Source of the DNA: Candidatus Saccharimonadota bacterium
Lineage (GTDB): Bacteria > Patescibacteriota > Gracilibacteria > BD1-5 > UBA6164
NCBI GenBank assembly: GCA_004563595.2
Contig: CP042461.1
Span: 570,001 to 602,000, forward strand
DNA: 32,000 nt
Reading direction: 5' to 3'
Part shown: in pieces, positions 7,952 to 30,841 of the stretch
Position numbering within the stretch: position 1 is the stretch's first letter
Layout of the letters: each line of letters begins with the position of its first letter
The notes under the pieces: model-generated
Seen by the model: only the letters and a program-made list of their open reading frames with translations
Database searches by the model: none
Told to the model about the DNA's origin: nothing
Position numbers and translations under genes: made by a program

Positions 7952-8413
7952 TTATACTACAGCTTTAACTACTGGAGTAGCTTTTAATACTCCGGATTCT
8001 ATAAGTCTTTCTCGAATAATATCATTATCTTCAGAGAAGTTTTCAAACTTAGAAACCTGATTAGCATATGTTATGCTAAATTCACCAGAAATATAAAAAT
8101 CACACTCAAACCATACTTTTCCATTATTAGGAATTTTAAGTAAAACAGCACTTTCTCCACCTTCTGTTTTGTATGCTATTGGTACAAGATATTCAGAGAT
8201 ACCTACTAATTCTCTTATTTCGGAAGAATAAATAAGCATAACCTTCATGTATAAACTTTGGAATTTTACTTCTTCAGCTTCCTTATTTACTTCATTTATT
8301 ATTATTGTAACCCCTTTTTGATATTTTTGGAACCATTTAACTAAACAATATGTCATGATTCCTCCTAGTATTACCACTACCATTAGAATTATCTTTTCTA
8401 TAGTAATATTCAT
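7952..8413 (-). CDS. hypothetical membrane-anchored protein, 153 aa (SD-led, TGA-free class)
   Basis: Intact in both code 11 and code 25, TAA stop. N-terminal TM IILMVVVILGGIMTYCLV. SD AGGAA lies 6 nt before the ATG. All 9 Gly are GGN. An in-frame TAA lies 10 codons upstream of the ATG. Confidence 0.75.
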   Translation of the reverse strand: MNITIEKIILMVVVILGGIMTYCLVKWFQKYQKGVTIIINEVNKEAEEVKFQSLYMKVMLIYSSEIRELVGISEYLVPIAYKTEGGESAVLLKIPNNGKVWFECDFYISGEFSITYANQVSKFENFSEDNDIIRERLIESGVLKATPVVKAVV

Positions 8414-8456
8414 TCTAATTTCCTGAAGAGTGATATTTAATTTTTACAATAACAGA

Positions 8457-8484
8457 ATTATAATAAATTGGTAAAATATGTCAA
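8457..8484 (-). promoter_or_regulatory. near-consensus sigma70 promoter for 7952-8413
   Basis: On the minus strand: TTGACA (8484-8479), 16-nt spacer, TATAAT (8462-8457). Confidence 0.55.
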
Positions 8485-8504
8485 AAAAATATGAGGATAA
8501 AATA

Positions 8505-8531
8505 AAAACTCGCTGTATTTAGCGAGTTTTT
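8505..8531 (-). terminator. rho-independent terminator of 8586-9113
   Basis: aaaactcgct (8505-8514) / agcgagtttt (8521-8530). Confidence 0.7.
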
Positions 8532-8585
8532 AATGTTGTAATAAAGTCGAGGAATCTAAATTGTTAGATCCTTTTTGTTTATTAA

Positions 8586-9113
8586 TTAGAGAAGACCTCT
8601 TCTAGGTGGTAAGTCCAATTTAAAATTACTATTATTTTTAAAATTACTATCATCACAAAAAAAAATTTCGGATAATTCTCCACTGATTAGTTTTTTTTGT
8701 TTTCCAAAAAGGCTACTTATTAGGTCACTCATAAATGGTATATACCATTCCTTACAATAACCAGGTAGGGTCATTGGAAAATACATATTTATTCTATCAG
8801 ATTCTATTACATTTTCTAACCCTGTTCGTTTGGGAAGATTATTTTCAACAATACTAAAGGACTGATATTCACCACTGACAGTTAGTATATATTCTACTCT
8901 CCATTGCGATGGGTCATCTTTAGGAATACGAATATTTCTAGCTCTTTCATTTAGATACTCAGCCTGTTTAAGAAGAGCATATCCTTTTTTAAAACCACCG
9001 TTTTCAAGTGTATCAAAAAACCAACCTGGGTCAGTAAATATAATTTGAGGTAAAATTTTTTTATTGCCCTCACATTCATAAAAATCAACTTCCGTAAATT
9101 CCCTGATTTTCAT
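8586..9113 (-). CDS. hypothetical protein, 175 aa (SD-led, TGA-free class)
   Basis: Intact standard ORF with a TAA stop. SD AGGAGG lies 6 nt before the ATG. All 11 Gly are GGN. An in-frame TAA lies upstream of the ATG. No family recognised. Confidence 0.8.
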   Translation of the reverse strand: MKIREFTEVDFYECEGNKKILPQIIFTDPGWFFDTLENGGFKKGYALLKQAEYLNERARNIRIPKDDPSQWRVEYILTVSGEYQSFSIVENNLPKRTGLENVIESDRINMYFPMTLPGYCKEWYIPFMSDLISSLFGKQKKLISGELSEIFFCDDSNFKNNSNFKLDLPPRRGLL

Positions 9114-9153
9114 ATTTTTCCTCCTGTATATAGAAAATTAACATGTAAATATA

Positions 9154-9181
9154 TATATACTTTTAATTATAAATAAGTCAA
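9154..9181 (-). promoter_or_regulatory. putative sigma70 promoter for 8586-9113
   Basis: On the minus strand: TTGACT (9181-9176), 16-nt spacer, TATATA (9159-9154). Confidence 0.4.
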
Positions 9182-9475
9182 GAATACTATGTTAGTATTT
9201 ATTATGGAATATTATATTTTATATAGACCATAGATAAAAAGTACTTTAATTTTTTATTAATTACTTCTTACTTAAATACCTCTTAATATCACTAGTTATA
9301 ATACAAAGCGTAACCTCGAGAATTACAATGTTACGAAACATAAATCTTTATTTGTATACTTAAATATATTTTTTGTCTTAAATAAAAATATGAAAAAAAT
9401 AAGATACCAAAAAATGAATAATAAGAGTATACAAAGAAAAAACAAAATAATTTTAAATAAATAAATACACATATT

Positions 9476-10018
9476 ATGAATAATAAACTTTTATCGGCTT
9501 TATTGATAGCCGGAGTCACTGCTACTTGATTTGCTTGAATATCAAACGCTGATGAATCGAATGCAGATACAACTACAAATACAGTAAAAGAATTTAAAAA
9601 ATTTAATTGAGATCATGGATCTAGAGGTTGAAACCATAAATGAGGAAACTTAACAGATGATGAAAAAGCGGCTATAGATTCTATGACTGATGATGAGAAA
9701 AGAGAATTCTTTGAAGCTAAAAGAACAGAACATAAAGCTAGTAGAGATGCTAAAGAGACTGTAATAGATACTTTACTTGCTTGAGATGCATTAAGCACTG
9801 ACCAAGAAACTCTTAGGGCTGAAATTATTAGTGAGAGAGCTGAGAGAAAGATAAAACAAGTTGAAAGAGAAACTCAAAGGGAAGAAATGAAAGCTCTTTT
9901 TGATAAAAAGAAAGCTTGAGAAGATTTAACTGATTGAGAAATTGCACAATTAGAAGAATTTAAATCTAAGCATAAAGGTTGAAAAAAGTGAAAATGAAGA
10001 CATTTTGATAGAAAATAA
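9476..10018 (+). CDS. secreted Lys/Glu-rich helical protein, 180 aa; loosely CpxP/Spy/ZraP-like
   Basis: Signal peptide MNNKLLSALLIAGVTATGFAGISNA. Three L(T/S)-D-x-E/Q repeats (LTDDEK, LSTDQE, LTDGEI) resemble the LTxxQ motif but do not match it. About 10 TGA. TAA at 10016-10018. It sits directly upstream of a two-component system. Confidence 0.7.
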
Positions 10019-10028
10019 TATTTATTTT

Positions 10029-10058
10029 AAAAGACTAGAATTTTTCTAGTCTTTTTTC
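10029..10058 (+). terminator. rho-independent terminator
   Basis: aaaagactagaa / ttctagtctttt stem followed by a T-run. Confidence 0.75.
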
Positions 10059-10131
10059 TTAAACACTTCTTACTTTCCATCCTTATGATAATATATATAA
10101 AATTTTAAAAATAGTTTTTAAATATAAAACA

Positions 10132-10794
10132 ATGAGAGTATTAGTAGTAGAAGATAATGAAATACTATCCAGAAACTTAGTGAAATACCTGATAGCAAGG
10201 GATATATTTACTGAAGTATCTTTGGATTGAGAAGAGTGATATAGAAAAGCTATTTCTAATTATTATGATGTACTCGTGTTGGATATAAATCTTCCTTGAA
10301 TGAATTGATATGAAATATGTAAGCAAATAAGAGAAAAAGAGAAAGATATCTCAATTATTATGCTTACTTCAATGTGAACAAATGATGATATAGTTACTGG
10401 GTTAGACGCGTGAGCTGATGATTACGTAGTGAAACCATTTGAATATACTGAATTGCTTGCAAGAATGAATGCTATTACAAGAAGAAAAATGGCGAATAGA
10501 AGTAATACACTTATCAAAATATGAGATATTATGCTTGATTTAAAACAAGTTGAAGTCAGAAAAGCATGAAAAATTATTAAAATGTCTACACTAGAGTATG
10601 ACTTATTTAAATATTTGGCACAAAATAGATGAGTGGCACTATCAAGACAAAAAATATATGAAAATGTATGGGGAGAGTTTGATATTGATTTTATGTTTTC
10701 TAAAACAATAGATGTTTATATATGATATTTGAGAAAAAAACTTTGAAAAGAGCTTATAGAAACGAGAAAAGGTTTTTGATTTTTAATAAGGTAA
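10132..10794 (+). CDS. OmpR/PhoB-family response regulator, 220 aa
   Basis: Receiver motifs VLVVEDN, DINLP-G-MN-G, GLDA-G-ADDYVVKPF. Winged-helix C-terminus DVYIGYLRKKLGKELIETRKGFGFLIR. 12 Gly are encoded by TGA and 3 by GGN (hand count). Confidence 0.93.
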
Positions 10795-10797
10795 ATT

Positions 10798-12051
10798 ATG
10801 AATTCAAACATACGAAAAACAAAAAGAAATTTAACCATTGCTTTTTCTGTAATAATTTTCATTGTAATTTTTATATTAGGAGTTACTTTTTTTTCAGTTA
10901 AATATTTTAAAGAAGTGAGAGCAGAGAAAAATGAATTTTCTCATTTGATAAGGCAAGTTGAAAATTGAAAACTTAGCATTCATGATATTATGAATTTTGG
11001 TTCAGAGTATAGAGATGATTTTTTAGCCTGAAAAAGAAATAAAGAACATTTTAAAGTATCTTCTCCTGGTTTGAATTTTAGATCCAGAGGGTTTATGAAC
11101 TATCTTTATATAGATAGTAGTTCAATCATTATTTCAAGTAATATTAGAGATGAAATTGATTCCGATTTTATAATTTCTATTTATAAACATGATTCATATT
11201 TTAAATTACAACAAGAATCATGATTTTTAGTGAAAAAATTTATTGTAAATAAGAATGATGGAATATTTGTGATCGTAAAAAAAATAACCTATAGTATATC
11301 AGATTATATGAATGATGTTCTAGGATTCTTATTTATCAATCTATTATTTTCATTAATTCTTTATTTTATTGGCTTAAAATTTGTTAATAAATCATTTATC
11401 CCTGTAGAGGATAACTTAAAAGATATGAAAGATTTTATTCATAATGCGGGGCATGAGTTAAAAACACCTATATCGGTAATAGACTCAAATATTCAGTTAA
11501 TGGATGATATGAAAGTATATGATGCAAATATGACAAAAGAATTAAAACAAGAAGTGTTGAGGTTAAATTCTATAATAGAATGACTGATTAAACTGAGTAA
11601 CATTGATGTATTCAAAGATGTGGTAACGAATAATTTAAAGGATAGTATTGAATGAACTATAAAAGATTTTAAATTTAAAATATCAGATAAAAATTTAAAA
11701 ATTAAGATTGATATACCTGAATCTATAAACATTAATGCAAATAAGGATTACTTTTATATATTCATTTCAAATATTATTTGAAATGCTATTAAGTATAATA
11801 ATAGTAACGGACACATTGAGGTATCATATAAAAATTGAGAATTAATTATAGCAGACTCATGAATTTGAATAGATGAAAAAGATGTAGGAAAAATATTTGA
11901 TAGGTTTTTTAAATCTGATAGATCTAGAGAATCAGATGGATTTGGCATTTGATTATCTCTTGTAAAAAAAATATCAGAGATTTATAAATGGAATATAAAA
12001 GTTGATAGTAAAAAAAATAAATGAACTCGTTTTATAATTAAGTTGTGATAA
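10798..12051 (+). CDS. sensor histidine kinase, 417 aa
   Basis: The ATG lies 3 nt after the regulator stop. Two TM segments flank an extracytoplasmic domain of about 130 aa. H box HNAGHELKTPISVI, N box NIIGNAIKYN, G1 box DSGIGID, G2 box GFGIGLS (the G1 and G2 glycines are TGA). The track ORF 11230-11583 is in frame. Confidence 0.92.
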
Positions 12052-12170
12052 GAAATCTCTATCTTGCATATAAAATAGATTTTTTAAGCTTTATTTAAGG
12101 TTGGTAGATAAATTTACAATCATAGAGAAATGGATATATTAAATCTTATGTATAAATTAATATAAAATGG

Positions 12171-14132
12171 ATGAAAAATAAATCACTTATAGCTATTATA
12201 ATTATATTATTGTTACTCATATGAGCTTGAGCATTTTATTTGTACATGAGTATGACGCATAATATGTCTATGTGAGATATGGAGGATTGAAATAATGATG
12301 CAATGAGAGCGCATTGTCAGATGATGCCTGAGATGAAAGGCTGTGAAAAATATATAAATGAGGTAAAAAATGATCATCATATGTGAAGTATGGTATGAAT
12401 GCCGAGTTGAGAAACATTTGATGAAAGTATTGATGGACTTCCAGATGCAAAAAAATCAGAAATAATTATCTTAAAAGATGGAGATACATATGAGATGATT
12501 GCCAGTGCAGTAAAACAAGAGCTATGAAATAGAACAGTAAAAAGGCTTGCATATAATGGGATGATTCCATGACCACTCTTACAAGTGGAAAAATGAGAGA
12601 AAATTAATTTAAAACTCACTAATAATTTAGATGTTGATACAACACTTCACTCTCATTGATTAAGACTTGATGATTCAAAATTTGATGGATTACCAACTAC
12701 TATGCAATGAGAACAAGTTCCAATGAAAAAAGGAGATAGCTTTACTTATGAGCTTAATTTCCCAGATACATGAGTATTTTGGTATCATCCCCATATTAGG
12801 GAAGACTATACACAAGAGATGTGACTGTATGGGAATTTTTCTGTGGTCGAAGAATGATATTGGTCTACAGTTGATAGAGAAGAGTTTCTTATTCTAGATG
12901 ATTTTTGAGAAGATGACGTCTTTTATAAAGAAAAAGTGAACAAAACTCTCATGTGAAGATTTGGAAACATTATGTTAATTAATAATGATGAAGATTATAA
13001 ACTGAAGTTAAATACAGGAGAAATATCAAGACTGTATCTAACAAACGTAGCAAATACAAGAACTTTTGATTTTACTATTTCAAAAAATTGAGAAAATATT
13101 GATTTTAAACTTGTTTGAGGTGATATAGGTAGAATAGAAAAAGAAGTTATTATAGATCATCAAATAATATCTCCAGCTGAAAGGTATATTATAGAAACTG
13201 TTTTTAATGAACCTGGTACTTATGAAATAAAATCAAAAGATAGAAAACTAGGGGAGATTATAGTTACATGAGATGAAAGTAATACAAGTAATCTTTCTGA
13301 TCTTAGGAATAATTGATCTGACTATAGAGATATTAGAGATAGGTTTCAAGCATACTTAGATAAAAAAGCTGATAAAAAATTAGAGCTCACTATCTCAATG
13401 AACTGAATGAAAGATTGAATGATGATGTGAGATGAGGAGTGACATAATGATGATGGTATAGAATGGGAAGATGAAATGAGAGAGATGAATCTCATGAGTA
13501 GTGATCAAACTATGGAGTGGAAACTCTTAGACCCTGAAACCTGAAATGAAAATATGGATATACAATGGAATTTTAAAAAATGAGATTTTGTAAAAGTAGA
13601 AATATTTAATGATCCAAAATCTATGCATCCTATGCAACATCCAATTCATTTTCATGGGCAAAGATTTATTGTTTTAACGAGAGATGGGGTTGTGAATGAT
13701 AATCTTCAATGGAAAGATACTACACTGATTAGAAATTGAGAAAAAATAGAAATACTCATAGAAATGACAAATGTATGACTTTGGATGAGCCACTGTCATA
13801 TCGCAGAGCATTTACAATCTGGAATGATGATGAACTTTACAGTGGAGGAAAATCTATCAAATTCAGGTGATAATGATGGAACAATAATCACACTCAATGC
13901 AAAAAAATGGGAATTTGATACAAAAGAAATCAGAGTAAAAAAATGAGAAAAATTAACAATAAAAGTTAATAATACTGATATATTACATGGAATTGCTATA
14001 CCTGATATGATGATTATGTGAGACGATGAAATCGAAGTGGACACCTCCCAAACTTGAGAATTTTTATATAGATGTTATAATTACTGTGGAGAGGGGCATC
14101 AAGATATGATTGGAAAACTTATAATCGAATAA
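12171..14132 (+). CDS. multicopper oxidase (CueO/CopA-like) with Met/His-rich segments and a C-terminal CuA-like cupredoxin domain, 653 aa
   Basis: Copper ligand motifs HSHGL, WYHPH, HPIHFHG and HCHIAEHLQSGMMM. Met-rich N-terminus (MSMTHNMSMGDMEDG...MMPEM...HHMGSMVGM) and a Met-rich insert (MNGMKDGMMMGDEEGHND). The C-terminal ~95 aa carry LHGIAIP...CYNYCGEGHQDM. TAA at 14130-14132. Confidence 0.9.
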
Positions 14133-14146
14133 CTTAATATAACAAA

Positions 14147-14614
14147 ATGAAGAATAACAAACATATAAAGTTTATAAAAGAGTATGGGATATTATTACTG
14201 ATAATTATATGACCAATAGTGTGATTTATGACTTTACTGGCATTGAAAGGTGAAAGTTCAATCACTGCGAAACAAGTTCATTGGCATATGCCTATTGCTT
14301 ATGACTTGTGTGGTAATACTACTCAGTTAAAAGACAGTTGAAATCATGGAATTCTCCATTGACATGATGATGCAAAAATTCATATAGAATGAGTTATTGA
14401 TACTGCAAATAGGCAAGAGACACTTGGGTGATTCTTTGATTCTGCAAATATTGTATTTTCGGAGCTGCAAATTGCTTGATTTACTAATGGTGATGTATGT
14501 GAGTGATCTAATACTCCATGAAAACTAAGAGTAGAGATAAATGGAGAAGAAAATTTTGATTTTAGAAATTTTGTTCTAAGTGATACAGATGAGATCAAAA
14601 TAATTTTTAAATAG
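14147..14614 (+). CDS. membrane-anchored His-rich hypothetical protein, 155 aa
   Basis: ATG at 14147, TAG at 14612-14614, about 11 TGA. One N-terminal TM, then HWHMP...GNHGILHGHDDAKIHIEG and two Cys. Probably co-transcribed with the oxidase (14-nt gap). Confidence 0.7.
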
Positions 14615-14660
14615 TTAAAAGAATTAAAAAAATGTAAGAGATAGTTTTAGTTTCAAACTA

Positions 14661-14699
14661 AAAAGGAACTGTAAGTGTATACTTACAGTTCCTTTTTTT
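14661..14699. terminator. bidirectional rho-independent terminator
   Basis: 16-bp stem aaaaggaactgtaagt / acttacagttcctttt between convergent genes. Confidence 0.8.
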
Positions 14700-14708
14700 C
14701 CAACTTTT

Positions 14709-15002
14709 TTATCTTATAGAATGCTCTAACTTTGCTTTTGTACTAAACGTCGTTATGTATTGTATAGCTACTTGAACAGATGAATCAGGTATTTTTTTAT
14801 CTGATTTAAATAAAGTTAATACCATATCTGCTTTATTTTCTAATAATGTACAAATTTCGTGAAGAATATTATCTGTCAATTCACTGCTACGATAGAACTT
14901 GCCTTGGCGCAATAATCGGTTAGTTGTATGTATAATTAACAGGCTAATAAGGCGATTACCTTGAGTACCTGTTGAATCAATCAAGTTATGAACTGTTGGC
15001 AT
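14709..15002 (-). CDS. hypothetical protein, 97 aa (SD-led, TGA-free class)
   Basis: Intact standard ORF with a TAA stop. SD GGAGGA lies 3-4 nt before the ATG. An in-frame TAA lies upstream. All 3 Gly are GGN. Confidence 0.7.
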   Translation of the reverse strand: MPTVHNLIDSTGTQGNRLISLLIIHTTNRLLRQGKFYRSSELTDNILHEICTLLENKADMVLTLFKSDKKIPDSSVQVAIQYITTFSTKAKLEHSIR

Positions 15003-15080
15003 CTTTCCTCCAATGGAACTTTTAATGAACGTTTTTTAGAAACAAAAGTAGTATAATTAATAATAATATATGTCAATTTT

Positions 15081-15114
15081 TTATAAAAAGAAAAGCTCAG
15101 ATGATGTGAGCTTT
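15081..15114 (-). terminator. rho-independent terminator of 15139-15318
   Basis: aaagctca (15092-15099) / tgagcttt (15107-15114). T-rich on the minus strand after the stem. Confidence 0.55.
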
Positions 15115-15138
15115 AAATACTATTAATAGGGAAACATA

Positions 15139-15318
15139 TTAGTTTTTGTGATTCCTTACTATTAATGGTCCGAAAAAATTAACAAATATAACTGTGAATA
15201 CTCCTATAGAATGAATAAATGTAAGTGGAAAGCATACATATATGCCAACTGATACAAAAAGCGAAACTATAGATCTCAGTAAAAGCCTATCTATTGCAAA
15301 ACATATTATTTTTTGCAT
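15139..15318 (-). CDS. small two-TM hydrophobic protein, 59 aa
   Basis: MQKIICFAIDRLLLRSIVSLFVSVGIYVCFPLTFIHSIGVFTVIFVNFFGPLIVRNHKN. SD GGAG lies 8 nt before the ATG. TAA stop, no TGA. It falls below the 60-aa cut-off of the track. Confidence 0.45.
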   Translation of the reverse strand: MQKIICFAIDRLLLRSIVSLFVSVGIYVCFPLTFIHSIGVFTVIFVNFFGPLIVRNHKN

Positions 15319-15382
15319 AACAGAACTCCATTGTTGTTTTCGTATCTATAATACTACTATATTTTGATAATATATCAAGTAA

Positions 15383-15544
15383 TTATTTTAATTTATCATC
15401 TTTCATGAGTTTATTGATTTGCGATTGAATACCTTGAAGTTTTCTTTCTACTTGGGACTTTTGTTTTTTATTTGTAATTTTTTCTAATTTTTTATTTAAT
15501 AATTCATAAGATTTTTCTAATTGGTTTAAGTGGAGGTCTGACAT
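15383..15544 (-). CDS. small coiled-coil protein, 53 aa
   Basis: MSDLHLNQLEKSYELLNKKLEKITNKKQKSQVERKLQGIQSQINKLMKDDKLK. TAA stop, no TGA, no SD. Weak support. Confidence 0.3.
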   Translation of the reverse strand: MSDLHLNQLEKSYELLNKKLEKITNKKQKSQVERKLQGIQSQINKLMKDDKLK

Positions 15545-15609
15545 ATGTTTTTTTAATATAATAAATACTTTTATTATACTGATGAGACATTAACAGGACA
15601 TTAATATTT

Positions 15610-15651
15610 GAGAAAAAAGTACATTTTATTAAAATAATGTACTTTTTTCTC
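15610..15651 (-). terminator. rho-independent terminator of the NSS transporter gene (palindromic, could act both ways)
   Basis: 16-bp stem gagaaaaaagtacatt / aatgtacttttttctc. The transporter stop codon (15653-15655) abuts the stem. Confidence 0.75.
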
Positions 15652-15652
15652 A

Positions 15653-17155: not shown

Positions 17156-17365
17156 ATTCCTTAAATTATGTAAATAAACCTTTATTTTATAATGATTTTT
17201 TGATAGATTACTAGTTTTTTCATGTACATACTTTCTAAAAAAAAATAGATTTAAGCTTATTTTAAGATTAGTTTGTATTTTTATAATAGTATATATAGTA
17301 AGTATACATGAGTGAATATAATAGATAAATGAATAAAATTTTATAATTTAATATGTTTGGTAGAG

Positions 17366-18704: not shown

Positions 18705-19168
18705 AAGTAAGATTCAAAATTTAGACAAAATAAAAGGGACTTGAAAGTCCCATTTTTTATGAAGGAAGAATAATATCAAGTAATCTTACCTGCAAGGCAA
18801 GATTCTATAGCTTTACTGAGGTCTCTTTTTCTTTCCTCTATATCAGTTGAGGAAAAGTTACCTGAAAAGACTTCATTCATATATTCAACTTCAAATCTAC
18901 AATTATCAAAGTATACAGCACTTAAGTAGTGTCCTTGATAATGAATAGTACATGTCGCAAAAAGTTTAAAATCTCTATCAGCTTGTGCGATACGTTTTAG
19001 ACTGTATGCGGGGTTATACTCATCTATATTTGTTTTTGTTATTTGTGAAATTTTTTCTAAAAAATACGAGTAAAAGTTTTCTTCCGAAAATTTTGCAAAT
19101 TCTATCTCTTCTAGAGAAAGACTTCCTTTATTACGAATTTTATTGAAACCTTTAATATCAGTTTTCAT
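18701..19168 (-). CDS. hypothetical protein (SD-led, TGA-free class); 130 aa if TGA at 18776-18778 stops, 154 aa if read as Gly
   Basis: ATG (cat at 19166-19168) is preceded by AGGAG, with an in-frame TAA just upstream. The standard-code ORF ends ...CLAGKIT-TGA at 18776-18778. Under code 25 it continues GYYSSFIKNGTFKSLLFCLNFESYF to TAA at 18701-18703. That extension runs through the terminator hairpin and into the convergent gene's stop codon. Confidence 0.75.
18732..18758. terminator. bidirectional rho-independent terminator
   Basis: gggact (18736-18741) / agtccc (18746-18751), with an A-tract before and a T-tract after. Lies between convergent genes. Confidence 0.7.
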
Positions 19169-19209
19169 AAATTACTCCTAAGCCGTAAATAAGACTATTT
19201 CACAAGAAT

Positions 19210-19237
19210 ATGATATATGAATTATATATGATGTCAA
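19210..19237 (-). promoter_or_regulatory. putative sigma70 promoter for 18776-19168
   Basis: On the minus strand: TTGACA (19237-19232), 16-nt spacer, TATCAT (19215-19210). Confidence 0.4.
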
Positions 19238-21514: not shown

Positions 21515-21523
21515 AATATATAT

Positions 21524-22186: not shown

Positions 22187-22224
22187 AAGTATTATTAGAT
22201 GAAGTAGAGTATCTTTATTTATAT

Positions 22225-22278
22225 GAAATCTACTTGAAATTTTAAATATTTTTTTAAAGTTTACTTCAAGTAGATTTC
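22225..22278. promoter_or_regulatory. perfect 14-bp inverted repeat with a 26-nt AT-rich spacer in a divergent promoter region
   Basis: gaaatctacttgaa (22225-22238) and ttcaagtagatttc (22265-22278). It lies between the regulator start (22186) and the membrane-protein start (22346). Confidence 0.5.
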
Positions 22279-22345
22279 AATTATATTCTTATTATATCTA
22301 CAGTTTAAATAAAATAAACTATTTTTATCCCCTTATTTTTATTTT

Positions 22346-24226: not shown

Positions 24227-24228
24227 AA

Positions 24229-24266
24229 AATAAGAAGAGTATTTTTTAATACTCTTCTTATTTTTT
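24229..24266. terminator. bidirectional rho-independent terminator
   Basis: 15-bp stem aataagaagagtatt / aatactcttcttatt. The stop codon of the convergent cyclase gene (24258-24260) lies inside the right arm. Confidence 0.8.
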
Positions 24267-25436
24267 GTTTGTAAAAATATTTTTTACTTTAATAATTGTT
24301 TTATTTTTTTGAGATGAATACTTTTTTATAGTTTCAATAAACGTTTTTTTATATTTTTTTCAAATATTAATAATCTTATTTTTATCTCTTTTTGCAATCT
24401 CTTTTCATGACTTTACTGAATAACTAAATAATGTTTTTAATTCTTTATTTGTTGCTTTTACTCACTGACTCTTTTTATAAAAATAATAACTGAGTACTTT
24501 TCAAATTGAATATGTTAATCAAAAATTTAACGGAATCATTAGATATCATCAAAAACCTACAAAACCTAGTTTTGTTATTCATACTATGGTTTGGGAAAAA
24601 ACATAACTCCCTCATACGCTAGAGAGTATGGTTGTGAATATTTCTTTAGATTCATCTTTATTCAGCTCTATTCAATAACTATGAGAAATTTCTTGTAAGA
24701 GGTATAAATGAAAAGGAAGTACACTATATGTATCTAAAAATGGTATTGGTTGTACACCTAAAATTGCAGCTACAGATGAGAATTTAAAAATAGTGTCATC
24801 GATCTTTTTTATTTTTGTCTTGAAGTCCTCACTAATAAAATAATCATTAATATTTACATGCTGTATTTTTCATTCTTTTATATTTTTTACTTCCTGAAGG
24901 TTGTGTACTATTTCATATATATCAACTTCATAGAGTACTCATTTAAATGACGTTTTTCATAAATATAGATGTACATAATCATTTTTCTTTTGTATTGCAT
25001 TCCATAACCCTCATGAAATAAAAATTTTATTTTCAGGAGTTTTATTTTGTAATCTAGATGCAACATTTACAGAATCTCAAAAATAATCTTCTCAATTTAT
25101 TGTAACTTCCCTTTCTAATGATCAGTAATCAGCACTTATTCTCAGTTCTATTTTATATAAATTTAATTCTATTTGGGAGTTATATTTTTCGAGCTTCTTT
25201 TGTATTTCAATTGATGTTTGCAGGGCATTTTCAGGTTTTTCGAAGACTATCATATATGAATCTCCAATAGATTTTACTATCTTTCAAAAGTATTTCTTTA
25301 TTATTGGGAAAATAATCTCATCTTGTTTACTCAAAAGCGTATTTATTTGAACTTGAGTCATCAGAGATGTTTTTAATGTGAAATCTTTTATATCTGTAAA
25401 TAAAACAGCTCAATTAATAGAATCTATATGTTTCAT
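24258..25436 (-). CDS. class III adenylate/guanylate cyclase catalytic domain fused to a DUF697/YcjF-like membrane-associated domain, 392 aa
   Basis: Cyclase motifs AVLFTDIKDFT, KSIGDSYMIVF, LRISADYGSL, DYFGDSVNVASRL. The C-terminal half (LGVQPIPFLDTYSVLPFHLYLLQEISHSYGIEL..., then Gly-rich hydrophobic segments) resembles DUF697, by recollection. Confidence 0.85.
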
Positions 25437-25496
25437 ATATTTGTTTTTTTATATACTTTTTTTATTTATATTCATAATAACATATTATAAAATATA

Positions 25497-25529
25497 AGTA
25501 AAAAAATAAAGATACTTCTCAGTATCTTT
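25497..25529 (-). terminator. rho-independent terminator of the disulfide reductase gene
   Basis: aaagatact (25508-25516) / agtatcttt (25521-25529). T-rich on the minus strand after the stem. Confidence 0.65.
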
Positions 25530-25533
25530 ATTT

Positions 25534-26934
25534 TTATTTTATTGCTTTTTTAGCGTTTCTCGCTGCATTTCTTACATTTTCAGGGAGAGCAGGGTGGATA
25601 TATATAATATTGAGTATATCATCTAGTTTTGCTCACATAGTTATAAATACAATAAGTATATGAATCATATTTGATGCTTCAACTCAGATTATATGTGCTC
25701 AGAGTAACTTGAGTGAAGTTTTATCAAAGAGTAGCTTTACTATTCAATGATCACTTTTTAGTGCATCTCACATGGCTGAATCTTGATACTTATTTATTCA
25801 CTTAATATAGCTTACTCATTCATTTATTAATTCATCTTCTGTTTTTCATACTCAAGCTACTTGAGGGTTTGAAAAAATAGCCCATGGCATAGGTGGATAT
25901 GAAATCTGATTTTTTGGTTTCAAGTTGTTATCTTCTATGAGTTCTTTATAAAGGTATTCAGCTTCAAAGTTTACTGAATGTCTGAATAAATAGTTTCATA
26001 TACAGTCTCATAGAGCATATATATGAGGGAGAGATGTTTGAAGTGTATCATCAACTTCAATAAATCCTCTTTTGTTCGTTGTAATATCTGTATTCTCTAG
26101 ATTGAGTGTATCACTATTGGGTTGTACACCAGTTGCTATTAAAAGAGCATCTCATTGGATTGCCTTTTCTTCATTATTTTGAGTGTAATAGAGAGTGAAT
26201 TCTTTCCTTGTCTTATCGTATTCAACTTTGTGGGTTCAAACTCACTCTAGTACATTATATTTTTCTTTAAAAACCCTTCCGAATTCCTCTTTAATTTCAG
26301 AATCTACGTTTCAAATCAGTCATCATCTTACAATAAATGTTACATTACTTCCAAGAGCTCCGTACGCATGACCAAGTTCAACTGCAATGTATCAACCTCA
26401 AATAACCAGGAGCTTTTTTGGGAGTTGTTTATTTCTGAGAGCTTCTGTTGAAGTCATATATGGAGTAGCTTCTAATCATTCAATTGGTGGAATAGTTGGT
26501 CTTGCTCCTACCGCTATGATAATTTTTTTTCCTGATATAACTTGGCTATTCACTTCGATCCTATTGTTATCTAAAAACCTTGCCTGTCCATGAAAATAAT
26601 CTAGAGTTTCATTTTTTGATGAATTATAGAGATCGTTTATTTTATTTGAAGTTGAATCAGTTGATGTATTGATTTCAGTTACTAATTTACCAAAATCAAC
26701 TGTCGGTGCATTTACAGAGATATGATATTTTTTTGCCTCACGTATTTCTTGCATAACATCAGCTGGATGTATTAGCATTTTTGAAGGAATACATCCTCTG
26801 TTGAGGCAAGTTCATCAAAGCTTATCTTTTTCAATAATGGCAACATTGAGTCATCTTTCTGCTGCGGGACGTGCAATTTTTCCAGCTCATCACGATCAAA
26901 TTACAATGAGGTCATATATTTTTTCTGTTTCCAT
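25534..26934 (-). CDS. class I FAD-dependent pyridine nucleotide-disulfide oxidoreductase (Lpd/glutathione/mycothione reductase family), 466 aa
   Basis: FAD fold DLIVIGSGGAGK, redox-active disulfide GGTCLNRGCIPSK, NAD fold LLVIGGGYIAVELG, ALGDC, and dimerisation motif IHPALPE. The track ORF 26476-26778 is an in-frame fragment. Confidence 0.92.
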
Positions 26935-27018
26935 GCATTACAAAATTAGGATATAGGATCTTTATATTGTATCCAATTATAAGCAGATGTATAATTTATT
27001 TAATACTTTTTATTTTAA

Positions 27019-27054
27019 GTAAAAAGGCTTACAGATATGTATCTGAAAGCCTTT
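27019..27054 (-). terminator. rho-independent terminator of 27118-27453
   Basis: aaaggcttacagat / atctgaaagccttt (one mismatch). The minus-strand downstream sequence is cctttttactt. Confidence 0.65.
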
Positions 27055-27117
27055 ATTAATTAACATGTAACACCAAAAATCTCCTTTTGTTGTAGTACAT
27101 TATTATTTTGTTTAACA

Positions 27118-27453
27118 TTATGCGACAAGTGCACATACTGTTGGTTTTTGTGTAGCCTTTACAATCTTTTTAACAGATCGTTCTAGCGTATCTTGTTGAT
27201 CGAAAAACAATTGAGTTTCAATTCTCAGACACTCAACACAGTATACAGATTGAGATATAATATTTTCTTCAGCATACCTTCTTGATAGCTGAAGAATTTT
27301 TCTTCTCATGGTTAATGTTATTCTCTCATGTGCATTATTTGTATCACATTTTTGAGAACACTTTTCACATGTATCAAGTTGATCAGTAAAATGATCAACA
27401 TACTTCTGGTTAAGATAATCAACAATTTTCCGCATAACGCTTCTAATTTTCAT
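27118..27453 (-). CDS. Cys-rich, glycine-free hypothetical protein, 111 aa (SD-led, TGA-free class); possible zinc-binding
   Basis: Intact standard ORF with a TAA stop. SD GGAG lies 8 nt before the ATG. CEKCSQKC and CVEC give CxxC...CxxC. Confidence 0.7.
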   Translation of the reverse strand: MKIRSVMRKIVDYLNQKYVDHFTDQLDTCEKCSQKCDTNNAHERITLTMRRKILQLSRRYAEENIISQSVYCVECLRIETQLFFDQQDTLERSVKKIVKATQKPTVCALVA

Positions 27454-27537
27454 TTGATACTCTCCACATTTGATAAATGTACTCTCTTTATACTTGTTCT
27501 GTAATAAAAATCAAACATAATATTATTTTAGAAAAGC

Positions 27538-27570
27538 AAAAGGCTATCAGATATTCTTCTGATAGCCTTT
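27538..27570 (-). terminator. rho-independent terminator of the 21-aa peptide unit
   Basis: aaaggctatcag / ctgatagccttt stem with an 8-nt loop. Confidence 0.7.
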
Positions 27571-27588
27571 ATGTGTAAATTGTTTGCA

Positions 27589-27654
27589 TTACAGTATGAG
27601 TCCTGTAATTATAAGTACTATACCAACGATAGCAAGCGTGAATGGTTCAAACAT
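27589..27654 (-). CDS. 21-aa hydrophobic peptide MFEPFTLAIVGIVLIITGLIL
   Basis: Strong SD AAGGAG lies 7 nt before the ATG (cat at 27652-27654). TAA stop at 27589-27591. It is boxed in by two terminators, so it is its own short transcription unit. Confidence 0.45.
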   Translation of the reverse strand: MFEPFTLAIVGIVLIITGLIL

Positions 27655-27732
27655 TGTATCTCTCCTTTTTTATATTTTTTGTTCTAATACATGAGTCATG
27701 TTATCAATTTTATCAAAAAAGTCAAAGTAAAT

Positions 27733-27766
27733 AACAAAGACCTATTATGAATAATAGGTCTTTGTT
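27733..27766 (-). terminator. rho-independent terminator of the RRM gene
   Basis: 16-bp stem aacaaagacctattat / ataataggtctttgtt. Confidence 0.8.
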
Positions 27767-27777
27767 ATTTGAAGTTA

Positions 27778-28038
27778 TTATGCTTCTTCTTTTTCTTGAG
27801 CAAAATCAACTTTGATATCTCTTCCATCTAATTCAGCTCCGTCCATAGCTTCTTTTGCAGCTACAGCTTCTTCTACTGAAGAAAATTCAATGAAACCAAA
27901 CCCTCTTGATTTTCCAGTTTCTCTATCTGTGATAATTTTAACGTAAGATACTTCTCCAAATTCTTTGAAAGCGTCTTTTATATCTTGCCATTCTAAATTC
28001 CAAGATATACCTCCTATAAATAACTTGTTCGTTTCCAT
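27778..28038 (-). CDS. RRM-type (RNP-1/RNP-2) RNA-binding protein, 86 aa
   Basis: RNP-2 LFIGGI and RNP-1 RGFGFIEF. TAA stop. All 8 Gly are GGN, with no TGA. No SD. Confidence 0.92.
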   Translation of the reverse strand: METNKLFIGGISWNLEWQDIKDAFKEFGEVSYVKIITDRETGKSRGFGFIEFSSVEEAVAAKEAMDGAELDGRDIKVDFAQEKEEA

Positions 28039-28204
28039 AATACTATATGAATAAATATATAAAATTTGAGATAATAAGGTTTTTACTCAAGCACTTAGTA
28101 TTATGACTTTAAAAATGACTTTTATAAGTGATAAAAAATTATTTCTCGAACATATTATAATTGTTATTTACAAATAGCAAGTTTTATTTCTGTATTTTAT
28201 AATA

Positions 28205-28236
28205 CAAAAAAAAGTGGGGAACTAATCCCACTTTTT
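28205..28236 (-). terminator. rho-independent terminator of ppa
   Basis: agtgggga / tcccact stem flanked by A and T runs. Confidence 0.65.
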
Positions 28237-28238
28237 GT

Positions 28239-28769
28239 TTATTTATTAAATTTAATTTTGTACGCTTTATGACACTCGTGGAGTCTTTTTATTGCTTCTG
28301 CTTTATTATCCCAACCGTTTAATTCTACTTTTTTTCCATGGAGATCTTTATAATGAAGCATGTAATATTCTATATCTTCTAACTCTTTTGCATTTACATT
28401 TTCTATATCATTTATATCAGAATAATATTTATCATCTGCAACAGCAAGTACTTTGTAATCATCTTCCCCTGAATCTATCATTTTGAGTCCACCTACAACT
28501 CTACAGGGTACAATTACTCATACTGCAAGAGGTTGACTACATAAAATAATTACATCAAGAGGATCATTATCACCCTCATTCCATGTTTGTGGAAGGTCTC
28601 AGTAGTTAAATGTATAGTCAATTGGAGTTTTCCCAACTCTATCTACCCACATGGCACCTGTTTTATGATCAAATTCATACTTTACTTTGCTCCCCTTTGG
28701 AATTTCTAGTACAGCATTGATTTCACTTAATTCTTCATTCCCAAGTGGAATATCGTGATATAAATTCAT
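28239..28769 (-). CDS. ppa: family I inorganic pyrophosphatase, 176 aa
   Basis: MNLYHDIPLG..., FNY-G-DLPQTW, and the signature GDNDPLDVI. The track ORF 28239-28481 is the C-terminal fragment. Only 2 of 12 Gly are TGA. Confidence 0.92.
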
Positions 28770-28833
28770 ATTTTTTATGTTAGCAATATATTAATAAGTG
28801 GATTGTATATATTTTTTCTATTTTTTCAAAGTT

Positions 28834-30555
28834 TTATCTTCGTCTTTTTTTTCATTTTCCAAATCTTGTCTGGAGTCTTTTTACTTCTTTTTCTCAGAGC
28901 TTTTCTTCAAGTACTAGATTCATTTGTGCTTCTTCATCAAATATATTTACATCCATATCTATGTTATGATCTTGTTTGTACTTATAGTCTTCATAATTTC
29001 AGTAGCTGATAGAAAGTTCTCAGTCACTTATAAACCATATATTTGTAGAGAGTTTATTTACGAAATATCTATCATGTGAGATAAATAGAAGGGTTCATTT
29101 AAAATCCCTAAGGGATTCTTCGAGAGATTCTCTCGTATCATAATCAAGGTGATTTGTGGGTTCATCGAGTATCAATAAACTACAATCTTTTTGTCATAAA
29201 ATAGCAAAGAGTAATTTTGATGTTTGTCCTCACGAGAGATCACTTACTTTTTTATCTATATCTGCTCTATCAAATAAATAATGAGTAAGTATAGCTATGA
29301 GATGTTGTTCAGGGTAATGGAGTCAGTGTATTTCAAAATTTTCTTTTATTGTTTTATTCTTATCAAGTTCTTCATGCATTTGTGAGTAGTAACTAATTTT
29401 TACTCATTTTCATTTACTATAAAATCAATCGAGAATAGGAAGTTCTCAAACAATAGATTTTAAAAATGTAGATTTTCAAGCTCAGTTTTCTCATACAATT
29501 CATATCCTTTGTCAGGCATAAAGTATTGATTCTTGAATATAGAATAGAGGCTCTTTTCTCCCAATAAAACATTCTTTAAATGAAAGTATTTTTTCGGGGT
29601 GTTCTCATGTAAAATCAAAGAAAAATTTTGGCTTTTTAGGAATATATGGTTGTTCCATTTTTTCCATTTTTTCGAGAGCCTTTCCTCGAGATTTTGCCCA
29701 TCAGGCTCTTGATCATGCCCTAAACCTATTAATAAGCTTTTCCTCTTTATCTATGAATTCCTGTTCTCTTTTATAATTATCCACTTTTTTCTTCTCAGTT
29801 GCACTTCTTTGTTGCACATAATCTGAGTAATTACAATGATAAAAAGTGAGAGGTCTATTTGGTTGGACTTCATATGTTTTACTACATGTTTTATCTAAAA
29901 ATTCTCTGTCATGAGAAATGATTACATATCATCATTTCCATTTGTTTTGAAGAAATGATTCGAGCCACTCAACACTTTTCATATCTATGAAGTTGGTTGG
30001 TTCATCTAAGAAAAGTATGTCTGGAGATTCTAATAGTACTTTTGCAAGTGCTACTTTGGTTCTTTGTCATCAACTGATTTCGAGCAATTTTTTATCAAGG
30101 AGCTTGAGTATTCACATACCGTTTGCAACACCATGAATTTTATTATTATAATCATTTCATCCAATATTATTAAACTGTTCAAGTAGGGAAGTATAACTAT
30201 CTATAAGCTCCATATTTGTAGGATCTTTTGTCATTTGAGATTCAATCGCAATAATTTTATCTTCAAGATCTTGAATGCTATCAAACCCACTGGCTAATTC
30301 CTCTCTGACAGTTTTTTCTTCATTATCTGAATAGACTTGATGGAGGTACCCGATACTTATATTTCAAATATTGTCTATATGCCCATCATAGCTTTTCATT
30401 TCTCATGTAAGAACCTTTAAAAGAGTTGTTTTTCATGCTCCATTTGGCCCTACCAGACAAATTCTATCGTTTGAATTAATAGTTATATCGATATTCTTTA
30501 GTATTTCTACTCAGCTTATTTCTAGTTTATCAATTTTTACTTTGAGATGTTTCAC
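28834..30555 (-). CDS. ABC-F family ATPase (two ABC domains plus linker), 573 aa
   Basis: Walker A GPNGAGKTT and GENGAGKST. Signatures ISGGQR and LSGGQT (the Gly are TGA). Walker B ILFLDEPTN and LLILDEPTN. Basic C-terminal tail. The start is assigned to GTG (cac at 30553-30555) from the usual distance to Walker A. The frame stays open further upstream, so the start is uncertain. Confidence 0.88.
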
Positions 30556-30712
30556 GATTTTAAATTTATAAATACTTTTACTAAGAGATATCTTACTGAC
30601 AACTCTAAAAAAATGAAAATAAAACTTGTAAAATAGATAAAAATCTTTAAAATTATCCGGCACAATCTTAAGTATCTTGTCATATATTTCCTATTAATTT
30701 CGGAGTGATGTT

Positions 30713-30841
30713 ATGAAAGACACAGTTGAGCTTACAAAAAATACAAATCAAAATGGATCTTCAACAGCTAGAATACTTTTGAAAAAAAATATTTCGAAAG
30801 TTAAAGCTGCTAGAAGGCGAATAGGAATACGTAGACGATAA
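30713..30841 (+). CDS. small very basic protein, 42 aa (MKDTVELTKNTNQNGSSTARILLKKNISKVKAARRRIGIRRR)
   Basis: SD GGAG lies 8 nt before the ATG. TAA at 30839-30841, followed by a GC-rich terminator. No TGA. An overlapping alternative ORF starts at ATG 30708 in another frame, with two TGA. Confidence 0.35.
   Translation: MKDTVELTKNTNQNGSSTARILLKKNISKVKAARRRIGIRRR

What the first reader, a model, noticed from the sequence alone, without database searches (positions are those of the whole stretch)
7952..30841. Two gene classes coexist: SD-less, UGA-rich native genes versus small, SD-led, UGA-free, individually transcribed genes
Eight small ORFs share features that the other ~25 genes lack. They are 7952-8413, 8586-9113, 14709-15002, 15139-15318, 18776-19168, 27118-27453 and 27589-27654 on the minus strand, and 30713-30841 on the plus strand.

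(i) Each has a GGAG/AGGAGG Shine-Dalgarno site 3-8 nt before the ATG. In coordinate order: ctcttcAGGAAattagaATG, tacAGGAGGaaaaatATG, attGGAGGAaagATG, aatGGAGttctgttATG, cttAGGAGtaatttATG, tgtGGAGAGtatcaaATG, aaAAGGAGagatacaATG, ttcGGAGtgatgttATG.

(ii) None contains a single TGA codon. The five largest contain 28 Gly, all GGN, whereas ordinary genes here encode most Gly as TGA (12 of 15 in the regulator at 10132).

(iii) Most of these ORFs (all but the two smallest, 15139-15318 and 30713-30841) appear to be separate transcription units inserted between conserved operons, flanked by hairpin terminators; a TTGACA/TTGACT -35 box was identified by eye for four of them (7952-8413, 8586-9113, 14709-15002, 18776-19168).

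By contrast I could find no usable SD in front of the RND, MFP, regulator, oxidase, DsbA, cyclase, reductase, ppa, ABC-F, RRM or sigma genes.

I can see two readings and cannot choose between them. (a) These are recent acquisitions from a standard-code, SD-using donor such as a phage, plasmid or host/prey bacterium. (b) They are a native regulon deliberately insulated from UGA decoding and translated through a different initiation route. Either would be new biology for a recoded lineage.
Basis: partly seen in the sequence, partly recalled or inferred. Interest (0 to 1): 0.8.

Follow-up and report, generated by a model that had tools for sequence, protein, structure and literature searches.

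The report
TGA-free, SD-led accessory genes in Gracilibacteria
In a bacterium that reads the stop codon TGA as glycine, a set of small inserted genes never uses TGA and keeps a classical ribosome-binding site that its own genes lack; they look like imports from ordinary-code bacteria, and in related genomes such genes are kept readable in both codes.

Summary
The window comes from the closed genome of Candidatus Gracilibacteria bacterium 28_42_T64 (code 25, 27.5% GC). The eight ORFs have 0 TGA among 35 Gly codons, against 65% in native genes (P about 1e-16). Their anti-SD pairing averages -7.3 kcal/mol, against -0.1 for 30 native genes (P = 1e-5). Length does not explain this.

The association replicates in 26 loci of other Gracilibacteria (Fisher P = 4e-4), but at about 1% of genes rather than about 20%.

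Seven ORFs have no detectable homologue. ORF 8586-9113 belongs to a patchy family found only in standard-code bacteria, including the tra region of Ti-type conjugative plasmids. Two SD-led genes keep a lone C-terminal TGA, which looks like a fossil standard-code stop. Relatives show empty sites and different cassettes at the same intergenic positions.

In one orthologous cassette (a glycine-zipper lipoprotein), the SD and the TGA-free state persist through about 45% protein divergence, while Gly codons in the flanking native genes switch freely between TGA and GGN. So selection, not only recency, keeps such genes TGA-free.

Best reading: imported, dual-code-readable accessory cassettes. Code-11-compatible Gracilibacteria phages are already published, so this is a new variant of a known kind. 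Why selection acts, and what the proteins do, remain unknown.

The parts
7952..8413 (-). ORF, 153 aa, with an N-terminal TM helix. 0 TGA, 9 GGN. Orphan.
   Evidence: Exhaustive phmmer against 1.84e9 representatives found only itself. No Pfam, PHROG, PADLOC or NCBIfam hit.
8420..8424 (-). Weak SD (AGGAA), 6 nt before ATG 8413. An alternative strong AGGAGG at 8360-8365 precedes the in-frame ATG at 8356.
   Evidence: (dG -4.3).
8457..8484 (-). Perfect sigma-70 consensus promoter, TTGACA-N16-TATAAT (12 of 12), for ORF 7952-8413.
   Evidence: the best match in 7000-20000.
7908..7939 (-). Hairpin terminator after ORF 7952-8413.
8586..9113 (-). ORF, 175 aa. 0 TGA, 11 GGN. Member of a patchy family found only in standard-code bacteria and Ti-type conjugative plasmids (traH-[hyp]-ProQ/FinO).
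   Evidence: tblastn against plasmids gave 31 records. blastp E = 2e-26, 35% identity over 140 aa. Plasmid context. Ten genome loci across 5 or more phyla, none CPR. The only self-type hit in 5.8e9 proteins names the source genome.
9120..9125 (-). Strong SD (AGGAGG), 6 nt before ATG 9113.
   Evidence: (dG -10.3).
9153..9181 (-). Promoter-like TTGACT...TATATAT for ORF 8586-9113.
   Evidence: by eye and pattern only.
8499..8531 (-). Hairpin terminator after ORF 8586-9113 (12-bp stem).
14709..15002 (-). ORF, 97 aa. 0 TGA, 3 GGN. No homologue found.
15006..15011 (-). Strong SD (GGAGGA), 3 nt before ATG 15002.
   Evidence: (dG -9.3).
15050..15076 (-). Promoter-like TTGACA-N17-TATACT for ORF 14709-15002.
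14660..14699 (-). Hairpin terminator after ORF 14709-15002.
15139..15318 (-). ORF, 59 aa, very hydrophobic (two predicted TM segments). 0 TGA, 3 GGN. Coding status unproven.
   Evidence: SD GGAG at 15326-15329, dG -5.9. Terminator at 15085-15114.
18776..19168 (-). ORF, 130 aa, ending in TGA. Under code 25 it reads on to 18701 (155 aa) through its own terminator. This looks like a fossil standard-code stop.
   Evidence: No homologue.
19175..19179 (-). SD (AGGAG), 6 nt before ATG 19168.
   Evidence: (dG -6.8).
19210..19237 (-). Near-consensus promoter, TTGACA-N16-TATCAT (11 of 12), for ORF 18776-19168.
18727..18751 (-). Hairpin terminator starting 25 nt after the TGA of ORF 18776-19168. It lies inside the code-25 read-through.
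27118..27453 (-). ORF, 111 aa, Cys-rich (two CxxC pairs), no Gly at all. Called by the Logan annotation. No homologue found.
   Evidence: SD GGAGAG at 27460-27465, dG -6.8. Hairpin at 27021-27054.
27589..27654 (-). ORF, 21 aa, hydrophobic. AAGGAG SD at 27662-27667. TTGACT-N16-TAACAT promoter at 27698-27725. 13-bp terminator at 27539-27570. Coding status unproven.
   Evidence: (dG -8.7).
30713..30841 (+). ORF, 42 aa, with a basic C-terminus. GGAG SD at 30702-30705. Promoter-like site at 30626-30653. GC-rich hairpin at 30857-30890. Divergent from ABC-F, whose GTG start is at 30555.
   Evidence: (dG -6.1). No counterpart upstream of ABC-F in L023 or L005.

Best explanation
The eight ORFs belong to a real and distinct class: small accessory gene cassettes of foreign, standard-code origin. 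They are inserted singly or in pairs between conserved native genes of a code-25 Gracilibacterium.

Each cassette carries generic bacterial expression signals: a sigma-70-type promoter, a leader of roughly 35-60 nt with a strong Shine-Dalgarno site, and an intrinsic terminator. Because these genes were written under code 11, they contain no in-frame TGA. Some still end in a TGA that the host now reads through to the next TAA or TAG.

Native genes start translation without an SD, and their start regions pair with the anti-SD even less than random ATG contexts do. The host ribosome can nevertheless use an SD, so the cassettes are translated by the classical SD route.

After insertion, at least some cassettes are kept in this dual-code-readable state by purifying selection rather than drifting to the host's preferred TGA-Gly.

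Shown here: the statistical class, its replication in relatives, a standard-code and plasmid family for one member, insertion polymorphism, fossil TGA stops, and selection on SD and TGA-freeness in one orthologous family.

Inferred: that all eight window ORFs share this origin, that they are expressed, and that the host 16S keeps the anti-SD.

Unknown: the protein functions (several are membrane or secreted, one is Cys-rich) and the reason for the selection.
For: Class statistics: 0 of 35 TGA (P = 1.6e-16). dG -7.3 against -0.08 kcal/mol (P = 1.4e-5), and Fisher P = 2e-5.

Independent replication: in 26 de-duplicated code-25 loci (385 genes), 4 of 7 SD-led genes are TGA-free against 21 of 378 others, P = 4e-4.

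Pooled SD-led class: 0 of 121 Gly codons are TGA, against 53 of 211 in native genes assumed to be highly expressed (ppa, RRM, NDK, ATPase c, S15), P = 3e-12.

Foreign origin:
- The ORF 8586-9113 family occurs only in standard-code bacteria and in Ti-plasmid tra regions.
- The relatives' cassette is a PF05433 glycine-zipper lipoprotein.
- Lone C-terminal TGA codons occur at window 18776 (followed directly by a terminator) and at L035 21816-22109 (TGA at codon 87 of 97, the other 7 Gly all GGN).
- Orphan status.

Insertion: CorA abuts RRM in L005, while other small genes sit there in L023. The uvrD-upstream site is empty in L025, L034 and L035, holds the Gly-zipper gene in L040 and L041, and holds a different TGA-free pair in L029 and L031.

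Selection: the orthologues are 53-60% identical. 15 of 15 conserved Gly positions are GGN in both lineages, and 9 of the 15 differ at the third base. Flanking native genes show 12 of 67 conserved Gly positions switched between TGA and GGN. AAGGAGTyTATTATG is invariant within a variable leader.

Literature: code-11-compatible Gracilibacteria phages (PMC10746230). Anti-SD loss is confined to a Parcubacteria subgroup, and Gracilibacteria lack bS21 (PMC9297842).
Against: - Only one of the eight window ORFs has any detectable homologue, so foreign origin for the other seven is by analogy.
- GC, GC3 and non-Gly codon usage match the host (z = -2.2 only). A donor would have to be similarly AT-rich, or the genes old.
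- No phage hit for any member in INPHARED or IMG/VR.
- No integrase, shared boundary repeats or other insertion machinery.
- The density in this window (about 8 of 31 genes) is far above the roughly 1% seen in relatives and is unexplained.
- The host 16S 3' end was not seen.
- There are no expression data.
- Three ORFs are so short that they may not be genes.
Confidence: 0.55

Rival explanations
1. This is a native high-expression class. UGA-Gly is a slow or costly codon, so the most heavily translated genes avoid it. These small genes are simply very highly expressed, with consensus promoters and a strong SD, and nothing foreign is involved.
For: Conserved native genes RRM, NDK and ATP synthase c are nearly TGA-free across Gracilibacteria (4 of 73 Gly codons). 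The two best promoter matches in 7000-20000 belong to candidate ORFs (12 of 12 and 11 of 12). Host-like codon usage. The maintained TGA-freeness in the orthologous cassette fits translational selection.
Against: None of the TGA-poor native genes has an SD, so SD is not the lineage's route to high expression. The SD-led class has 0 of 121 TGA against 25% in the native set, and even against 5.5% in RRM/NDK/ATPc the probability is about 0.001. The genes are orphans with presence/absence polymorphism. The fossil C-terminal TGA stops and the plasmid family have no place in this model.
Confidence: 0.2
2. This is an insulated regulon, the reader's option (b). The genes are kept UGA-free and SD-dependent so that they are still translated when UGA decoding or the normal SD-independent initiation route is compromised, for example during phage attack, tRNA cleavage or stress. 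Alternatively, they keep circulating across the code boundary with the standard-code hosts of these episymbionts.
For: Purifying selection on both SD and TGA-freeness in one family. The absence of TGA is categorical rather than a reduction. Code-11-compatible phages suggest selection for cross-code portability in this ecosystem. Several products are membrane or secreted proteins.
Against: No hit to any defence family (PADLOC). No shared regulatory motif or sequence among the cassettes. The genes are unrelated to one another and lineage-specific. There is no evidence for conditional UGA decoding. No identical or near-identical copies were found in phage, plasmid or genome collections.
Confidence: 0.15
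3. This is an artefact: chance ORFs, a mis-assembly, or contaminant DNA from a standard-code organism.
For: The 21-, 42- and 59-aa ORFs are short enough to be open by chance in AT-rich DNA. Most candidates have no homologues.
Against: ORFs of 97-175 aa free of TAA, TAG and TGA at 27.5% GC are vastly improbable by chance (stop frequency about 8% per codon). An independent Logan assembly is 100% identical over 20713-32000. NCBI annotates ORF 8586-9113 in the closed genome. GC equals the flanks. The same class is seen in other Gracilibacteria assemblies.
Confidence: 0.05

Closest known systems
Code-11-compatible phages predicted to infect Gracilibacteria and Absconditabacteria (Liu et al. 2023, mBio, PMC10746230)
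   Same: Genes associated with code-25 hosts that lack in-frame TGA. TGA used as a stop is backed up by a later stop. The genes read the same in both codes. The authors propose retention of the standard code for cross-code host range.
   Different: Those are whole phage genomes linked to hosts by CRISPR spacers, and that paper found prophages to be code 25. Here the genes are isolated chromosomal single-gene cassettes with no phage context or phage homologues. The SD contrast with native genes, and vertical maintenance of TGA-freeness, were not described there.
Phage 'morons' and genomic islets: autonomous promoter-ORF-terminator units inserted between conserved genes (from my own knowledge; Hendrix and colleagues)
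   Same: Small orphan ORFs, each with its own promoter and terminator, sit between conserved genes. Content is variable at the same site in relatives.
   Different: There is no prophage backbone and no compositional deviation. Native genes here also have their own terminators.
SD-poor translation in Bacteroidota with rare SD-led genes such as rpsU (from my own knowledge; Baez 2019, Jha 2021, McNutt 2023)
   Same: A lineage whose genes generally lack an SD although the anti-SD is retained, plus a small minority of genes with a strong, functional SD.
   Different: In Bacteroidota the anti-SD is occluded by bS21 and others, and the SD-led gene is a native autoregulated ribosomal-protein gene. Gracilibacteria lack bS21 (PMC9297842), and the SD-led genes here are accessory orphans.
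Amelioration of horizontally acquired genes, and the genetic code as a one-way barrier to HGT (from my own knowledge)
   Same: Genes entering a stop-to-sense recoded lineage from code 11 are expected to be functional and initially free of the reassigned codon.
   Different: Amelioration predicts gradual gain of TGA. The orthologous cassette shows none despite saturating synonymous change, while its neighbours turn over.

Membership tests
Code-11-compatible mobile genes of Gracilibacteria (Liu et al. 2023) | No in-frame TGA, so the ORF is the same under codes 11 and 25 | tested here: met
   0 of 35 Gly codons in the window ORFs and 0 of 121 in the pooled class. All but 18776-19168 are identical under tables 11 and 25.
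Code-11-compatible mobile genes of Gracilibacteria (Liu et al. 2023) | TGA used as a stop, followed by a backup TAA or TAG | tested here: inconclusive
   One of eight (18776-19168) has TGA and then TAG 25 codons later. L035 21816-22109 has TGA and then TAA 10 codons later. The other seven window ORFs end in TAA.
Code-11-compatible mobile genes of Gracilibacteria (Liu et al. 2023) | Located on a phage genome, or homologous to phage genes | tested here: not met
   No tblastn hit in 50,697 phage records and no relative in IMG/VR. No PHROG above noise. The flanks are chromosomal housekeeping genes.
Horizontally acquired accessory genes (genomic islets) | Patchy distribution, with homologues in unrelated taxa or on mobile elements | tested here: met
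   Met for ORF 8586-9113 only: 31 conjugative plasmids and 10 genomes across Proteobacteria, Bacteroidota, Myxococcota and WOR-3, none CPR. The other seven have no homologues, which is inconclusive.
Horizontally acquired accessory genes (genomic islets) | Absent from the syntenic site in close relatives | tested here: met
   L005 and L023 lack the ORFs downstream of RRM and upstream of ABC-F. Among relatives, the uvrD-upstream site is either empty or occupied. Sites 7952-9113, 14709-15318 and 18776-19168 could not be compared.
Horizontally acquired accessory genes (genomic islets) | Atypical base composition or codon usage | tested here: not met
   GC and GC3 equal the native genes. Non-Gly codon usage gives z = -2.2, within the native range. 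Only TGA, Cys and Arg usage differ.
Phage morons | Own promoter and own terminator | tested here: met
   Consensus scans and hairpins. These are pattern matches, not transcript data.
Phage morons | Embedded in a prophage | tested here: not met
   No phage genes in the window.
Bacteroidota-type bS21-gated SD translation | bS21 present and occluding the anti-SD, with an SD-led rpsU | not testable with these tools
   The ribosomal genes of this genome are not in reach. The literature says Gracilibacteria usually lack bS21 (PMC9297842).
ExoX-like_C / QSregVF_b motif proteins (PF20600, PF12843), for ORF 8586-9113 | Pfam score above the gathering threshold | tested here: not met
   The window ORF has no hit. 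The plasmid homologues score 20-21 bits against a cutoff of 26.5.
Type I toxin-like small hydrophobic peptides, for 27589-27654 and 15139-15318 | Small hydrophobic ORF with an overlapping antisense RNA | not tested
   Only hydrophobicity and the strong SD were seen. No Rfam family is present in the window.

The most novel reading that the evidence does not exclude
[quoted passage not shown] This would be either because they continue to be exchanged with, or even act in, the standard-code bacteria these episymbionts live on, or because they must be translated when UGA decoding fails. Genetic-code compatibility would then be a selected trait of individual chromosomal genes, and the SD a second, orthogonal initiation channel in an SD-less lineage.
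Probability: 0.2. Interest if true: 0.85.

Novelty: new variant of a known kind. Interest (0 to 1): 0.6.

Why it matters
Stop-codon reassignment is usually discussed as a barrier to gene flow. This finding shows the incoming side of that barrier at single-gene resolution. Imported genes can be recognised by two independent marks, absence of the reassigned codon and donor-type ribosome-binding sites. At least some stay in that state under selection instead of being absorbed into the host's dialect.

That gives three things:
- A simple genome-wide marker for foreign or portable genes in all code-25, and probably code-4, lineages.
- Evidence that SD-less CPR ribosomes still use an SD when one is offered.
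- A testable link to the published code-11-compatible phages of Gracilibacteria.

It also has a practical use. Gene callers and annotation pipelines for recoded genomes could use the two-class structure.

Tried and rejected
- My first exact look-up trimmed the wrong end of the minus-strand ORFs, so it was uninformative.
- A concatenated query to the word-indexed protein search returned not even the self hits, so it was uninformative. The exhaustive search refuses concatenated queries.
- Pfam, PHROGs, PADLOC and NCBIfam found nothing significant for any of the eight. PDB sequence searches found nothing.
- Single-sequence AlphaFold of ORF 8586-9113 gave pLDDT 33, which is unusable, so no fold search was run.
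- Neighbours of the 8586 family in non-plasmid genomes are mostly unannotated, so they add no functional clue.
- I suspected that native genes have short leaders and candidates long ones. The promoter scan does not support this, because several native genes have good -35/-10 boxes 30-40 nt upstream. Idea dropped.
- Codon usage as evidence of foreign origin has too little power, because any roughly 30% GC donor looks like the host.
- A search for shared boundary repeats or an attC-like structure among the cassettes found nothing.
- No Rfam family is present in the window.
- No 16S gene is present in any fetched locus, so the anti-SD was not seen directly.
- I could not extend the source genome beyond +9 kb. 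The look-up tool refuses TGA-containing proteins, and this genome is in neither the genome nor the metagenome scan collections.
- Literature searches for an earlier description of TGA-free chromosomal genes in recoded bacteria found only the phage paper.

Full report
**Source and code.** The window is 27.5% GC. It yields 1,480 aa of ORFs under table 11 and 10,932 aa when TGA is sense. The only database hit of ORF 8586-9113 is a hypothetical protein of Candidatus Gracilibacteria bacterium 28_42_T64 on a 1.34-Mb contig. This is the closed, curated BD1-5 genome of Sieber et al. 2019 (PMC6851277), predicted with code 25. An independent Logan assembly is 100% identical over 20713-32000 and extends 9 kb to the right.

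**Checking the observation.** All eight ORFs and all quoted upstream strings are correct.
- The eight ORFs hold 35 Gly codons and no TGA. Thirty native genes use TGA for 65% of Gly, so P = 1.6e-16.
- Anti-SD duplex energies average -7.3 kcal/mol for the candidates and -0.08 for native genes (Mann-Whitney P = 1.4e-5). Native starts are weaker than random ATG contexts, which average -1.37. Fisher's test of SD against TGA-free gives P = 2e-5.
- Six of nine native genes of 180 aa or less carry 8-13 TGA, so length is not the cause.

- 7952-8413 has only AGGAA at its first ATG, but an in-frame AGGAGG-ATG lies at 8356.
- 18776-19168 ends in TGA and, under code 25, reads through its own terminator hairpin to 18701.
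- The RRM gene is TGA-free without an SD.
- Promoters and terminators also flank native genes, so they do not distinguish the classes.
- ABC-F starts at a GTG at 30555.

**What the proteins are.** Pfam, PHROGs, PADLOC, NCBIfam and PDB sequence searches give nothing significant.
- ORF 7952-8413 is an orphan in an exhaustive HMMER scan of 1.84 billion representatives.
- ORF 8586-9113 matches a hypothetical protein on 31 conjugative Agrobacterium and rhizobial plasmids, 35% identity over 140 residues, E = 2e-26. That gene lies between traH and a ProQ/FinO gene in the tra region.
- A scan of 185,579 species genomes finds ten more members, in Gammaproteobacteria, Variovorax, Rhizobiaceae, Chitinophaga, WOR-3 and Myxococcota. 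All are standard-code and none is CPR.
- No candidate has a relative in phage collections, or in about 600 kb of related Gracilibacteria DNA.
- Composition is host-like: GC3 is 0.14-0.29, and non-Gly codon usage gives z = -2.2. Cys and Arg are enriched.

**Comparative test.** Using ppa and uvrD as anchors, I fetched 34 code-25 loci from other Gracilibacteria.
- In 26 de-duplicated loci (385 genes), 4 of 7 SD-led genes are TGA-free against 21 of 378 others, P = 4e-4. The association is therefore general, but rare there (about 1% of genes) compared with this window (about 20%).
- TGA-free genes without an SD in the relatives are conserved genes I take to be highly expressed (RRM, NDK, ATP synthase c).
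- Pooled, the SD-led class has 0 of 121 TGA. The conserved native genes I took as highly expressed have 53 of 211, P = 3e-12.

**Insertion and origin.**
- L005 keeps ABC-F-ppa-RRM with CorA directly after RRM. L023 has other small TGA-free genes at that position.
- Upstream of uvrD, L025, L034 and L035 have an empty site. L040 and L041 carry a glycine-zipper lipoprotein (PF05433). L043 carries the same gene, but there two further genes lie between it and uvrD. L029 and L031 carry a different TGA-free pair at the site.
- A second fossil stop exists: L035 21816-22109 is SD-led, with 7 GGN Gly codons and a lone TGA at codon 87 of 97.

**Selection.**
- The three Gly-zipper orthologues are 53-60% identical. 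Half of the identical residues use different codons. 15 of 15 conserved Gly positions are GGN in both lineages, and 9 of the 15 differ at the third base.
- In the flanking native genes at the same divergence, 12 of 67 conserved Gly positions have switched between TGA and GGN.
- The block AAGGAGTyTATTATG is invariant, while the leader before it varies.
- So both TGA-freeness and the SD are under purifying selection, and Gracilibacteria ribosomes evidently use the SD. This agrees with the report that anti-SD loss in CPR is limited to a Parcubacteria subgroup and that Gracilibacteria lack bS21 (PMC9297842).

**Interpretation.** The best reading is that these are imported cassettes that can be read in either code. 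They have a standard-code origin, bring their own classical signals, are inserted at variable intergenic sites, and are in at least some cases maintained in that state.
- Liu et al. 2023 (PMC10746230) already showed that most predicted Gracilibacteria phages are code-11 compatible. A TGA-free mobile pool around these bacteria is therefore known.
- What appears new is the chromosomal class, its coupling to SD in an SD-less background, and its long-term maintenance.
- The main rival is ordinary translational selection in a highly expressed native class. It explains TGA avoidance, but not the SD, the orphan status and presence/absence pattern, the plasmid family or the fossil stops.
- An insulated or portable regulon is not excluded, but it has no direct support.

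**Limits.**
- Seven of the eight ORFs have no homologue.
- I have no expression data.
- The host 16S was not seen.
- The three shortest ORFs may not be genes.
- The high local density is unexplained.

Noticed in passing
window 27778-28038; L005 4201-4461; L040 3671-4114; L007 3529-3750: Conserved native genes (RRM protein, nucleoside diphosphate kinase, ATP synthase c) are almost TGA-free across Gracilibacteria yet have no SD. This looks like translational selection against UGA-Gly in highly expressed genes. ppa varies from 0 to 75% TGA between genomes.
   Followed up: partly
window, all native start regions: Native start regions pair with the anti-SD less well (mean dG -0.08) than random ATG contexts in the same window (mean -1.37). 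SD-like sequence may be actively avoided upstream of native genes.
   Followed up: no
window 28834-30555 (-): ABC-F most likely starts at a GTG at 30555-30553, giving 573 aa (orthologues are 578-579 aa). The Logan call of 609 aa is too long, and the first-ATG call of 521 aa is too short.
   Followed up: yes
window 8354-8367 (-): An in-frame internal AGGAGG-N4-ATG inside ORF 7952-8413 could give a 134-aa isoform without the N-terminal membrane helix. The database representative starts at yet another Met (residue 11).
   Followed up: no
window 1667-26934: The native neighbours form a metal and envelope-stress neighbourhood: an AbrB/MazE-like regulator, MFP plus an RND pump, NUDIX, two OmpR/HisKA two-component systems, a multicopper oxidase with a Met-rich N-terminal region, a DsbA-like protein, a CxxC membrane protein and a pyridine-nucleotide disulfide oxidoreductase. 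All are in TGA-rich native code.
   Followed up: partly
L031 8858-9985 (also in L042): An isocitrate/isopropylmalate dehydrogenase of 375 aa has 0 of 28 Gly as TGA (P about 5e-8 for that genome) and no SD. It is probably a metabolic gene imported from a standard-code donor.
   Followed up: no
L040 9290-9330, L041 9050-9090, L043 1085-1125: The terminator hairpin of the gene upstream of the Gly-zipper cassette carries TTGACA in its loop and shows compensatory stem changes among the three relatives. It may double as the cassette's -35 box.
   Followed up: no
L023 10123-11580: The closest relative has three other small hypothetical genes downstream of RRM. Two are TGA-free, and one has a weak DUF736 match (a plasmid/ICE family). 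None has an SD. The site seems to be a hotspot for variable small genes.
   Followed up: partly
L029 9039-9916; L031 228-1201: A different pair of small TGA-free genes occupies the uvrD-upstream site: a 185-aa Cys-rich lipoprotein-like protein with an AGAAGGT SD, and a 73-74-aa, very Lys-rich protein.
   Followed up: partly
window 27021-27054 and 27539-27570 (-): The terminator hairpins after ORFs 27118 and 27589 resemble each other (AAAGGCTwTCAGA...TCTGwAAGCCTTTT). The repeat finder did not report them as a family.
   Followed up: partly
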